Below are positions 19,904 through 20,360 of a stretch of DNA of 64,000 bases, one piece after another (position 1 is the first letter of the stretch; each line of letters starts with the position of its first letter). The position numbers were made by a program, and so were the translations under genes. The stretch is from the IMG/VR virus record IMGVR_UViG_3300003667_000040, positions 1-64,000 of that record; one strand, 5' to 3'. The DNA comes from a virus. Under the pieces are notes generated by a model, which was given only the letters and a program-made list of their open reading frames with translations, had not been told where the DNA came from and searched no databases.

Positions 19904-20360
19904 ATTTTGCCCCGTATCGCCGGGACAACGCGGATTTTTCACTTACCTTGATTAGCCAGTCATGCTTATCCTGCGACCGGACTCTACAAGGGCCAAGGCT
20001 CCCCGTCCTGCATTGACACTAACAGCAGGCAAGCGCAACCCATTTAGGGAGTGTCGCGCATAGATTGAAAGCGTCCGGCGTTGACCCAGATGTATGCGGT
20101 TATGGCTTATAACCAACTAACCTTACCGACTTCCACGGCTTGCATCGATTTGCCGCCTTACCCTTGCGGCCTCGCTTCCATCCGGTTACGTTTATCCGGC
20201 TTGGTATTTACTTCTCGCTACGCGATCAGTTTTCGGCATTTCGCGCTATACGCAATAGCCCCAACGTTTAATAGGGCGTTGTCGTAGCCCAAGACGTCCG
20301 TACTGTAGCTTTACGTGGAACTCTCTACGGCATCCCCACGGCCTAAGAATCTAGGCGAGA
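19904..20360 (-). ncRNA. about 450-nt promoter-driven, non-coding, hairpin-dense RNA directly abutting tRNA-Thr (class unknown)
   Basis: No minus-strand ORF. The consensus promoter at 20367-20395 points into it. Many 5-6 bp hairpins are present, for example GCCGC-AAGGGUAAG-GCGGC, GGUUAU-AAGCC-AUAACC and CCUGC-N-GCAGG. It ends 1 nt before the tRNA. Confidence 0.55.

What the first reader, a model, noticed from the sequence alone, without database searches (positions are those of the whole stretch)
19904..20360. Roughly 450-nt promoter-driven structured RNA fused to tRNA-Thr
A near-consensus promoter (TTGACA-N17-TATAGT at 20367-20395) fires into about 450 nt that contain no minus-strand ORF or SD. 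The stretch ends 1 nt before a canonical tRNA-Thr(UGU).

Read on the minus strand, the region is a chain of short GC-rich hairpins:
- GCCUA-N6-UAGGC
- CGUGG-N-CCACG
- CGCGA-N-UCGCG
- GCCGC-AAGGGUAAG-GCGGC
- GGUUAU-AAGCC-AUAACC
- CCUGC-N-GCAGG
- CCCG-GCGAUA-CGGG

This is far more self-complementarity than the surrounding coding DNA shows. It does not read as tmRNA (no T-arm or CCA end), RNase P RNA, 6S RNA or an obvious group I/II intron.

Large ornate RNAs of unknown function (ROOL, GOLLD) are known to sit next to tRNA genes in phages and prophages of Firmicutes-like hosts. This could therefore be a member or a smaller relative of that group, or a new class. A dedicated strong promoter and co-transcription with a tRNA argue that it is a functional RNA rather than a spacer.
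Basis: partly seen in the sequence, partly recalled or inferred. Interest (0 to 1): 0.75.

Follow-up and report, generated by a model that had tools for sequence, protein, structure and literature searches.

The report
Long leader of a phage tRNA operon
The 450-base stretch is a real, promoter-driven, non-coding leader in front of a phage tRNA gene. It is not a ROOL/GOLLD-type large RNA. In the one related phage found, only the promoter, the first ~60 bases and the neighbouring tRNA-like modules are kept.

Summary
The promoter, the absence of coding capacity and the direct junction to tRNA-Thr(UGU) are all confirmed. The listed hairpins exist. Their abundance is explained by the stretch's high G+C (52.7% vs 45.7%): dinucleotide shuffles fold as well (z = -0.85).

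No Rfam family matches, including ROOL, GOLLD, tmRNA, RNase P RNA, 6S RNA and introns, even at E <= 10.

Only one related phage was found (Logan contig, locus L242). It keeps:
- the promoter;
- two hairpins at +5 to +47, with one compensatory change;
- an 88%-identical tRNA-like element just downstream of the tRNA position.

Its central leader is not alignable and is about 280 nt shorter. tRNA-Thr is replaced there by a 92-nt tRNA-like domain.

My best reading is a composite leader of an early tRNA-mRNA operon, cut by tRNA-processing enzymes. The conserved parts are the promoter, a 5' hairpin domain and tRNA-like modules, and the rest is fast-evolving G+C-rich spacer. A single ornate RNA is unlikely but not excluded, because only two genomes could be compared.

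Better-supported by-products are a covarying tRNA-like element at 19733-19827 and a second promoter-leader-tRNA unit at 60480-60898. That unit holds an unannotated tRNA(CAU) and a significantly structured leader (z = -3.1).

The parts
20367..20395 (-). Sigma-70-type promoter: -35 TTGACA at 20395-20390, 17-nt spacer, -10 TATAGT at 20372-20367. The inferred transcription start is near 20361-20360.
   Evidence: It scores 11/12 in the scan. It belongs to the same motif class as the promoters at 9183, 21667 and 29847. It is conserved in L242 at 9588-9616. The start site is inferred, not measured.
20400..20459 (-). Frameshifted remnant of an 82-aa gene that is intact in L242 (9338-9586). The first 10 codons and the last 9 codons plus stop are retained, in different frames.
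   Evidence: Alignment and translations; BLAST segment window 20614-20430 = L242 9186-9367.
20297..20356 (-). Conserved 5' domain. Hairpin 1 is GCCUA-GAUUCU-UAGGC (20356-20341). It abuts hairpin 2, CGUGG...CCACG (20340-20314). The loop sequence GCCGUA of hairpin 2 could also pair with UACGG at 20302-20298, giving a pseudoknot or an alternative fold.
   Evidence: This is the only part of the finding alignable with L242: BLAST 72% over 133 nt including the promoter, and 65% over +1..+75. Four-fold degenerate sites are only 40-52% identical. RNAalifold keeps both hairpins, with one compensatory pair (G-C to C-G) and two one-sided changes. The pseudoknot is my reading of the sequence and is untested.
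20180..20296 (-). Non-conserved leader segment, 49.6% G+C. It contains the CGCGA...UCGCG hairpin.
   Evidence: There is no significant alignment with L242 beyond the 5' domain: score 27 against a shuffle mean of 26.3, and z = 1.7 against z = 1.4 for the negative control.
20066..20179 (-). tRNA-like relic.
- Acceptor-like stem: GGAAGCG/CGCUUUC. An alternative 5' strand, UGGAAGU, lies at 20135.
- D-arm-like hairpin: GCCGC-AAGGGUAAG-GCGGC.
- Anticodon-arm-like hairpin: GGUUA-UAAGCCA-UAACC.
- T-arm-like hairpin: UCUGG-GUCAACG-CCGGA, followed by discriminator A.
   Evidence: Architecture scan. ARAGORN at a 70% threshold calls 20135-20065 a possible pseudogene, tRNA-Ala(agc). It shares the acceptor heptamers and the preceding AGCCGGAU hairpin with the L242 tRNA-like domain at 9794-9885. 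The evidence is weak: the architecture alone occurs in 17% of shuffles, and the Rfam tRNA and tmRNA models do not hit it.
19904..20065 (-). 162-nt spacer directly upstream of tRNA-Thr, with no counterpart in L242. It ends in the hairpin GUCCCG-GCGAUA-CGGGGC followed by AAAAU.
   Evidence: In L242 the tRNA-like domain abuts the downstream tRNA-like element with a 3-nt spacer, and nothing there aligns with this segment. Sub-window z-scores are -1.0 to -1.3.
19831..19903 (-). tRNA-Thr(UGU), canonical cloverleaf, no encoded CCA.
   Evidence: ARAGORN; Rfam RF00005 at 61.6 bits.
19733..19827 (-). Conserved tRNA-like element (TLS), 3 nt after tRNA-Thr and about 10 nt before the Shine-Dalgarno sequence of the 66-aa gene.
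- Acceptor-like stem: GGGGCA/UGCCCC.
- Invariant core: GGUGCAA..AGACACACCUAGACAGUAGGA.
- Long variable arm.
- T-like arm: GCCAG-CUAUAAU-CUGGC.
   Evidence: It is 88% identical to L242. A third copy lies in an unrelated phage contig, L249, with a canonical T-arm. It has 26 pairs, 9 of them compensatory, 98.7% of cells paired and 0 of 500 shuffles reaching the observed values. The Rfam mascRNA model weakly hits the L249 copy. No Rfam family reaches threshold.
19509..19723 (-). Shine-Dalgarno sequence (AAAGGAG) and the 66-aa ORF. This is the first protein gene of the unit and is followed by the 743-aa helicase/N6-N4 methyltransferase gene (17252-19480).
   Evidence: ORF list; called genes and Pfam domains. 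No terminator-like site lies on the minus strand between 21500 and 19000.

Best explanation
Window 19904-20360 is the 5' leader of an early phage transcription unit: promoter, ~456-nt leader, tRNA-Thr(UGU), tRNA-like element (TLS), Shine-Dalgarno sequence, 66-aa gene, then the helicase/DNA-methyltransferase gene. It is a composite rather than one folded RNA.

**Proposed parts of the leader**
- (i) A ~60-nt double-hairpin domain right after the start site. It is under purifying selection. It most likely acts as a 5'-end stabiliser or as a cis-acting element on the transcribing polymerase.
- (ii) About 115 nt of unconstrained sequence.
- (iii) A degenerate tRNA-like module.
- (iv) A 162-nt spacer that came or went together with tRNA-Thr.

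**Proposed mechanism**
- Host RNA polymerase starts at about 20360 and reads through, since no terminator is predicted.
- RNase P cuts at the 5' side of tRNA-Thr and of TLS, and possibly of the relic.
- A 3' tRNA-processing nuclease cuts after their discriminator bases. None of these elements encodes CCA, which fits RNase Z.
- The products would be the tRNA, leader fragments and an mRNA with a short A/U-rich 5' UTR.

**Basis of each step**
- Shown: promoter consensus and its conservation, lack of coding capacity, tRNA, TLS covariation, the conservation pattern, and G+C enrichment.
- Inferred: the transcription start, read-through, every cleavage, and the role of the 5' hairpins.
For: - The promoter is consensus, recurs in this phage and is conserved in the sister phage.
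- No ORF is present and no protein-family trace was found.
- No terminator-like site is predicted on the minus strand.
- No Rfam family matches.
- Window and L242 are nearly saturated at four-fold sites, at 0.40-0.52 identity. Alignable non-coding sequence is therefore constrained, and only the promoter plus 5' domain and TLS qualify.
- The central leader is not alignable, and the leaders differ in length: about 456 nt here against about 175 nt before the tRNA-like module in L242.
- The modules are spaced like a tRNA array. tRNA-Thr to TLS is 3 nt, and the L242 tRNA-like domain to TLS is 3 nt. The second locus, tRNA(CAU) to tRNA-His, is also 3 nt.
- In the L242 tRNA-like domain only the acceptor and T-arm are canonical, which is the part a tRNA-processing signal would be expected to need.
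- tRNA-like 't-elements' that direct RNase P and RNase Z cleavage of mRNAs are documented in plant mitochondria (PMC1920247).
Against: - No transcript data exist, so every processing step is inferred.
- Leaders in both phages, and the second leader in this window, are G+C-enriched (52.7%, 59.1%, 53.9%) although they are not alignable with each other. Neutral spacer in a 45% G+C phage would not be expected to show this, so the 'filler' may be selected as folded RNA.
- Two genomes cannot exclude a structure conserved without sequence conservation.
- The tRNA-like relic is statistically weak: its architecture occurs in 17% of shuffles and it has no covariance-model hit.
- The other early promoters of this phage lack the 5' domain, so its role is specific to this unit and unknown.
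Confidence: 0.5

Rival explanations
1. A genuine large structured non-coding RNA of a new, lineage-restricted class. It would be released from the tRNA by RNase P and be functionally analogous to the tRNA-linked phage RNAs ROOL and GOLLD.
For: - It has a dedicated strong promoter.
- G+C is enriched to tRNA-like levels, and non-homologous leaders share this.
- Absolute folding energy is in the top 1% of the window.
- It sits next to a tRNA, as ROOL and GOLLD often do (PMC5737381, PMC12286853).
- The 5' hairpins show one compensatory change.
Against: - There is no ROOL, GOLLD or other Rfam match at E <= 10.
- Stability does not exceed dinucleotide shuffles anywhere.
- The sister phage lacks about 280 nt of it and shares no alignable sequence beyond +75.
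- No homologue was found in 251 fetched loci, GenBank phages or plasmids.
Confidence: 0.15
2. A pure evolutionary relic. The stretch would be what is left of a decaying tRNA array and deleted genes, transcribed only because it lies between a promoter and the surviving tRNA. Nothing downstream of the promoter would be under selection.
For: - The adjacent 82-aa gene is visibly decayed, with an internal deletion and frameshift.
- A pseudo-tRNA-like relic is present.
- The central part is unalignable between sister phages.
- There is no excess structure.
Against: - The first ~60-75 nt are 65-72% identical where neutral sites are 40-52% identical, with pairing maintained.
- G+C enrichment is shared by non-homologous leaders.
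- The stems of the relic are still perfectly paired.
Confidence: 0.2
3. A cis-regulatory leader, such as a ligand- or protein-responsive attenuator or a processive-antitermination RNA. The conserved double hairpin at the 5' end would control expression of the downstream tRNA and methyltransferase operon.
For: - The conserved two-hairpin domain lies immediately after the start site, with a possible alternative or pseudoknot pairing.
- It is specific to this promoter among the early promoters.
- From my own knowledge, not a tool result: the put RNAs of phage HK022 have a comparable position and size.
Against: - No terminator is predicted downstream for it to act on.
- No riboswitch or leader family matches.
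- This would explain 60 nt, not 450.
Confidence: 0.1
4. A DNA-level element, such as a replication origin, packaging site or recombination site, rather than an RNA.
For: - A 926-nt contig from a sister sample (L244) is identical to the window only up to 19732, the exact 3' edge of the tRNA-like element. This suggests recombination at tRNA-like sites.
Against: - There are no direct, inverted or tandem repeats in the stretch.
- It is G+C-rich rather than A+T-rich.
- The replisome-organiser and DnaB genes lie elsewhere, at 10837-13087, and no integrase turned up in the ten ORFs scanned there.
- That junction lies outside the finding.
Confidence: 0.04

Closest known systems
5' leaders and spacers of bacterial and phage tRNA operons, including mixed tRNA-mRNA operons. 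E. coli thrU-tyrU-glyT-thrT-tufB is an example from my own knowledge. RNase P processing of polycistronic tRNA transcripts is described in PMC2190699.
   Same: The layout is promoter, non-coding leader, tRNA(s), protein genes in one transcription unit. The leader is removed by RNase P at the tRNA 5' end.
   Different: At ~456 nt the leader is very long. It is G+C-rich in an A+T-leaning genome. It carries a conserved 5' double hairpin and tRNA-like, non-tRNA modules.
ROOL (RF03087) and GOLLD RNAs
   Same: They are phage-encoded, non-coding and often next to tRNA genes (PMC5737381, PMC12286853). Some GOLLD RNAs carry tRNAs in their linker (PMC12286853).
   Different: There is no covariance-model match. 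The stretch is shorter than ROOL (mean 581 nt) and GOLLD (often over 800 nt). It has no conserved core shared with the sister phage and no excess predicted stability.
[quoted passage not shown]
   Same: They are phage non-coding RNAs co-transcribed with a tRNA cluster, and their function is unknown.
   Different: From my own knowledge, the T4 RNAs are about 120-140 nt and discrete.
Plant mitochondrial t-elements (PMC1920247) and the MALAT1-mascRNA arrangement (Rfam RF01684)
   Same: They are non-canonical cloverleaves embedded in longer transcripts that direct RNase P and RNase Z cuts and so define mRNA or ncRNA ends. TLS (19733-19827) sits exactly where such an element would create the 5' end of the 66-aa gene mRNA. 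The mascRNA model weakly hits the L249 copy.
   Different: The setting is a bacteriophage. Cleavage is untested. TLS has an invariant 21-nt core that suggests an additional specific ligand.
tmRNA tRNA-like domain
   Same: The L242 counterpart (9794-9885) is hit by the Rfam tmRNA model through its acceptor and T-arm, at 16.2 bits with a local E-value of 2e-4.
   Different: That score is far below the gathering score of 47. Only 53 nt lie between the two halves, against about 326 in the tmRNA model. ARAGORN at default settings finds no tmRNA, and only spurious low-threshold calls appear. The window copy is not hit at all.

Membership tests
ROOL RNA | Match to the Rfam covariance model (conserved multistem junctions and pseudoknots, ~580 nt) | tested here: not met
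   No hit at gathering threshold over the whole window, nor at E <= 10 with permissive filters over 19700-20500.
GOLLD RNA | Match to the Rfam covariance model, in particular the universally conserved 3' region | tested here: not met
   No hit. The length of ~456 nt compares with more than 800 nt for many members (PMC12286853).
ROOL/GOLLD-like 'ornate large RNA' in the loose sense | A complex structure conserved among homologues and supported by covariation | tested here: not met
   The only relative shares +1..+75 and nothing else. Just one compensatory pair was seen, in the 5' domain. The test is limited to two sequences.
tmRNA | tRNA-like domain with acceptor, T-arm and CCA end, plus a tag reading frame and pseudoknots | tested here: not met
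   ARAGORN finds no tmRNA and there is no Rfam tmRNA hit in the window stretch. Low-threshold ARAGORN 'permuted tmRNA' calls have implausible tags.
RNase P RNA, 6S RNA, group I and group II introns | Match to the respective Rfam models | tested here: not met
   No hit at E <= 10.
tRNA operon 5' leader | Non-coding sequence between a promoter and the first tRNA of the unit, on the same strand, with no intervening terminator | tested here: met
   Promoter, tRNA, no ORF and no terminator-like site on the minus strand.
tRNA operon 5' leader | Actual co-transcription and removal by RNase P | not testable with these tools
   This needs RNA-seq, 5'/3' end mapping or in vitro cleavage.
tRNA (for the relic at 20066-20179) | Cloverleaf scoring above the tRNA model threshold, with U33 and a canonical T-loop | tested here: not met
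   No RF00005 hit at E <= 10. ARAGORN calls it only at a 70% threshold, as a possible pseudogene with A33. The T-loop is GUCAACG, with G54.
t-element-like tRNA-like processing module (for TLS at 19733-19827) | Non-canonical cloverleaf with acceptor and T-arm stack, supported by covariation, abutting an mRNA end | tested here: met
   Five helices and 9 compensatory pairs in 3 sequences. The 3' end lies about 10 nt before the Shine-Dalgarno sequence. Only the structure and position were tested.
t-element-like tRNA-like processing module (for TLS at 19733-19827) | Cleavage by RNase P and RNase Z at its ends | not testable with these tools
   This needs experiments.

The most novel reading that the evidence does not exclude
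The three G+C-rich leaders are members of a fast-evolving kind of phage RNA. They are the Thr leader here, the 217-nt His/CAU leader at 60629-60845 and the L242 leader. Each would be made as a 5' extension of a tRNA or tRNA-like module and released by RNase P, and each would be selected for being stably folded, as a decoy, sponge or scaffold, rather than for a fixed sequence. Together with the covarying tRNA-like element in front of the methyltransferase operon, this would be a phage version of tRNA punctuation, with tRNA mimics used to build and process early transcripts.
Probability: 0.15. Interest if true: 0.65.

Novelty: new variant of a known kind. Interest (0 to 1): 0.35.

Why it matters
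The finding should not be counted as a new ROOL/GOLLD-like RNA, and removing it prevents a false positive.

What remains is still useful. It is a clean example of a phage early operon in which a tRNA, a degenerate tRNA-like relic and a strongly conserved, covarying tRNA-like element are strung between a consensus promoter and an mRNA. If RNase P and RNase Z cut there, tRNA mimics would be acting as transcript punctuation in a bacteriophage. As far as I know, that role has been documented mainly for organelles and for MALAT1/mascRNA.

The shared G+C enrichment of otherwise unrelated leaders is a small open question. It asks what selection acts on tRNA-operon leaders in phages.

Tried and rejected
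**Searches for homologues of the RNA**
- Rfam at gathering threshold and at E <= 10: nothing in the stretch.
- blastn against GenBank phages: only the tRNA matches. Against plasmids: nothing.
- nhmmer and blastn against 80 IMG/VR loci found through the 107-aa neighbouring gene: nothing.
- The same against 80 IMG/VR and 80 metagenome loci found through the methyltransferase/helicase gene: nothing. That gene turned out to be mobile with unrelated neighbourhoods.
- Protein searches with the flanking 66-aa, 65-aa and 112-aa genes against 5.8 billion proteins: only the source phage and one relative, L242.
- IMG/VR scans with the 66-aa and 112-aa genes: nothing.
- Exact-pattern scan for the 5' domain core: four spurious hits in G+C-rich coding DNA.
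- Pattern scans for the TLS core: one real hit, L249, and one chance hit in a Vreelandella genome.

**Ideas tested and rejected**
- Pseudogene remnant: no PHROG match for any stop-free fragment.
- Stop-codon recoding: all three stop codons occur in every frame.
- Repeats, a template/variable-repeat pair of a diversity-generating retroelement (DGR), an antitoxin-like array or iterons: none found.
- Paralogy between the Thr and His leaders: local alignment is no better than shuffles.
- Extra TLS copies inside the leader: covariance model R1 finds only the one at 19725-19830.
- Integration site next to an integrase: no integrase among ten ORFs scanned.
- Relatives of the His locus: one IMG/VR locus (L251), without a leader or tRNA.

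Full report
**Context**

The window is a phage genome fragment. Its source is JGI metagenome 3300003660, contig LSCMMerge_1000174, 68 kb. Essentially all of its genes lie on the minus strand. The finding sits between a 65-aa ORF (20501-20698) and tRNA-Thr. Downstream are a 66-aa ORF and a 743-aa helicase/N6-N4 methyltransferase gene.

**1. The observation**

- The promoter is real by every sequence criterion available. It reads TTGACA-N17-TATAGT at 20395-20367 and scores 11/12, the best site in 19000-21500.
- It belongs to a recurring class, GCTTGACA-N16/17-GTGTATAAT. The other members sit 20-30 nt in front of minus-strand genes at 9183, 21667 and 29847.
- tRNA-Thr(UGU) follows at 19903-19831.
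- The intervening ~456 nt have stops of all three kinds in all six frames. Their stop-free fragments match no phage protein family.

The stretch does fold more stably than 99% of same-size windows of this phage: -157 against -121 +/- 14 kcal/mol. That is a consequence of composition. G+C is 52.7% against 45.7% for the window.
- Dinucleotide shuffles fold equally well, z = -0.85.
- No 120-nt sub-window is beyond z = -2.0.
- The hairpin count of 6 equals the shuffle expectation of 5.0.

**2. What it is not**

- No Rfam 15 family matches, either at gathering score on the whole window or at E <= 10 with permissive filters on 19700-20500. ROOL, GOLLD, tmRNA, RNase P RNA, 6S RNA and group I/II introns are therefore excluded as far as covariance models can tell.
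- There are no repeats. That argues against arrays, iterons or a template/variable-repeat pair of a diversity-generating retroelement (DGR).

**3. Homologues**

Searching was extensive and nearly empty.
- GenBank phages match only the tRNA. Plasmids give nothing.
- 240 loci were pulled from IMG/VR and JGI metagenomes through two neighbouring genes. None contains anything similar.
- Protein searches with three flanking small genes against 5.8 billion proteins found only the source phage and one relative.
- That relative is a 69-kb Logan contig, SRR22388068_89903, fetched as L242.

**4. Comparison with L242**

- The two phages are syntenic from the SSB gene to DUF4942, with 49-81% amino-acid identity across the aligned genes. 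Four-fold degenerate sites are only 40-52% identical in the larger genes. Neutral DNA should therefore no longer align.
- In the syntenic intergenic stretch, L242 9557-10005, three things do align:
  - the promoter and the first ~75 nt of the RNA, at 72% over 133 nt by BLAST and 65% over +1..+75;
  - possibly the 3' part of a tRNA-like module;
  - the ~100 nt downstream of the tRNA position, at 88%.
- The centre does not align better than shuffles.
- The L242 leader before its tRNA-like module is about 175 nt, against ~456 nt here before tRNA-Thr.
- L242 has no tRNA-Thr. A 92-nt domain occupies that slot. Its acceptor stem and T-arm are canonical, which is what the Rfam tmRNA model picks up at 16 bits. 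Its D and anticodon regions are not tRNA-like.
- The window also carries a frameshifted remnant (20459-20400) of an 82-aa gene that is intact in L242. The neighbourhood has therefore been eroding.

**5. Anatomy of the leader (minus strand)**

- **20356-20297: conserved 5' domain.** Two abutting hairpins are kept in both phages. There is one compensatory G-C to C-G change and two one-sided changes. A possible pseudoknot or alternative pairing exists between the loop of hairpin 2 and 20302-20298; this is read from the sequence and is untested.
- **20296-20180: unconstrained segment.**
- **20179-20066: tRNA-like relic.** It has an acceptor-like stem GGAAGCG/CGCUUUC and a T-like arm UCUGG-GUCAACG-CCGGA. 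It shares its acceptor heptamers, and a preceding AGCCGGAU hairpin, with the L242 domain. ARAGORN reports part of it as a possible pseudogene only at a 70% threshold. The evidence is weak: such an architecture appears in 17% of shuffles, and the Rfam tRNA model does not hit it.
- **20065-19904: 162-nt spacer** that has no counterpart in L242.

**6. Just outside the finding**

Directly after tRNA-Thr, with a 3-nt gap as in a tRNA array, lies a 95-nt element at 19827-19733. I call it TLS.
- It folds as a cloverleaf with an acceptor-like stem, a D-like arm, a 4-bp arm with a 5-nt loop, a long variable arm and a T-like arm.
- Copies are known from the window, L242 and an unrelated IMG/VR contig (L249, found by pattern scan). 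L249 shares only one small gene with the window.
- Across the three copies, 26 pairs are 98.7% paired and 9 show changes on both sides. None of 500 shuffles reaches these values, and slid controls give 35-43% paired.
- The L249 copy has a canonical GGUUCGAGUCC T-loop and is weakly hit by the mascRNA model.
- No Rfam family reaches threshold. A sub-threshold 'freshwater-2' hit of 19.5 bits against a cut-off of 49.9 covers its T-like hairpin and the Shine-Dalgarno region.
- A covariance model built from the three copies finds no other copy in the window.
- The TLS 3' end lies about 10 nt before the Shine-Dalgarno sequence of the 66-aa gene.
- None of the tRNA or tRNA-like elements encodes CCA.

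**7. Mechanism proposed**

This is mostly inference. Host polymerase starts near 20360 and reads through, since no terminator is predicted. RNase P and a 3' tRNA-processing nuclease would excise tRNA-Thr and TLS, and perhaps the relic. That would release leader fragments and an mRNA with a short A/U-rich leader. This is the logic of the 't-elements' of plant mitochondria (PMC1920247) and of mixed tRNA-mRNA operons. The conserved 5' hairpins most plausibly protect the 5' end or act in cis on expression. They are absent from the other early promoters.

**8. What argues for more than a spacer**

- The Thr leader, the non-alignable L242 leader (59.1% G+C in a 44.7% genome) and a second leader in this window (53.9%) are all G+C-enriched to tRNA-like levels.
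- That is not what neutral intergenic DNA of an A+T-leaning phage should look like.
- I therefore keep a 15% probability that these are fast-evolving, structure-selected RNAs.

**9. Second locus**

- At 60898-60852 a promoter-like motif of a second recurring class (TTGAAA-N17-TATATA with a conserved TCGCG, six copies) precedes a 217-nt ORF-free leader (60845-60629).
- A tRNA(CAU) follows at 60628-60556. ARAGORN at default settings and the Rfam gathering run missed it. It scores 39.6 bits, above the 29-bit cut-off, in the sensitive run. ARAGORN finds it in mitochondrial mode.
- tRNA-His follows 3 nt later.
- The 293-nt stretch comprising this leader and tRNA(CAU) (60553-60845) is significantly structured: z = -3.1, with 1 of 200 shuffles as stable. 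This locus is also the most hairpin-dense and the most stably folding region of the window.
- No homologues could be retrieved.

**10. Comparison with known systems and verdict**

- The stretch works like a tRNA-operon 5' leader and meets that positional definition.
- It fails the tests for ROOL, GOLLD, tmRNA, RNase P RNA, 6S RNA and introns.
- It resembles ROOL and GOLLD only in being phage-borne, non-coding and tRNA-adjacent (PMC5737381, PMC12286853).
- It resembles the T4 RNAC and RNAD RNAs in being of unknown role within a tRNA transcription unit (PMC3014915).
- I rate it a new variant of a known kind, with moderate-low interest (0.35).
- The covarying TLS and the structured His/CAU leader are the parts most worth following up.

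Noticed in passing
window 60480-60898 (minus strand): A second promoter-leader-tRNA unit. A promoter-like motif at 60898-60852 precedes a 217-nt ORF-free, G+C-rich leader (60845-60629), then tRNA(CAU) and, 3 nt later, tRNA-His. 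The 293-nt stretch of leader plus tRNA(CAU) (60553-60845) has MFE z = -3.1, and this locus is the most hairpin-dense and most stably folding region of the window. No Rfam family matches the leader. It is a better structured-RNA candidate than the finding itself.
   Followed up: partly
window 60556-60628 (minus strand): An unannotated tRNA with anticodon CAU (Met or Ile2). ARAGORN at default settings and the Rfam gathering run missed it. It scores 39.6 bits against a 29-bit cut-off in the sensitive Rfam run, and ARAGORN calls it in mitochondrial mode. It is non-canonical: a 6-bp D stem with a 4-nt loop and no GG, and a T-loop GUCAGCA with G54.
   Followed up: yes
window 19733-19827 (minus strand); L242 9888-9985; L249 about 3809-3903 (minus strand): A conserved tRNA-like element between tRNA-Thr and the Shine-Dalgarno sequence of the 66-aa gene. 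It has an invariant core AGACACACCUAGACAGUAGGA and 9 compensatory pairs in 3 sequences. It matches no Rfam family and only three copies are known. In L249 it precedes a thioredoxin-like gene instead.
   Followed up: yes
L244 (926-nt contig, JGI 3300003669) against window 19145-19732: The contig is 100% identical to the window up to 19732, the first base after the 3' end of the tRNA-like element. Upstream it continues into the end of a response-regulator receiver-domain ORF that is absent from the window. This could be a cassette boundary, recombination at a tRNA-like site, or a chimeric assembly.
   Followed up: partly
window 5439, 13436, 37607, 54340, 60174, 60852 (plus-strand coordinates; the motif reads on the minus strand): Six copies of a second promoter-like motif, GTTGAAAAA-N(about 10)-TCGCGTATATATA. 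It probably marks a second temporal class of phage promoters.
   Followed up: no
window 9156-9183, 21640-21667, 29820-29847 (minus strand): Three near-identical consensus promoters, GCTTGACA-N16-GTGTATAAT, directly upstream of genes. They belong to the same class as the promoter of the finding.
   Followed up: yes
window 20400-20459 (minus strand): A frameshifted remnant of an 82-aa gene that is intact in the sister phage. The first 10 and last 9 codons survive, in different frames.
   Followed up: yes
window 644-835: About 16 tandem copies of a 12-nt unit (GCCCCGACCGAA and variants) inside the minus-strand ORF 508-1197. This would encode a 4-residue repeat.
   Followed up: no
L242 9794-9885: A 92-nt tRNA-like domain in the sister phage, in the slot occupied here by tRNA-Thr. 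It has a canonical 7-bp acceptor stem and T-arm (GCGGG-UUCGACU-CCCGU) but no D or anticodon arms. ARAGORN at default settings does not call it, and the Rfam tmRNA model hits it at 16 bits.
   Followed up: partly
L166, L162 (metagenome loci): The helicase/N6-N4 methyltransferase fusion gene (77-79% identical homologues) sits in completely different neighbourhoods in other contigs. It appears to be a mobile module.
   Followed up: no
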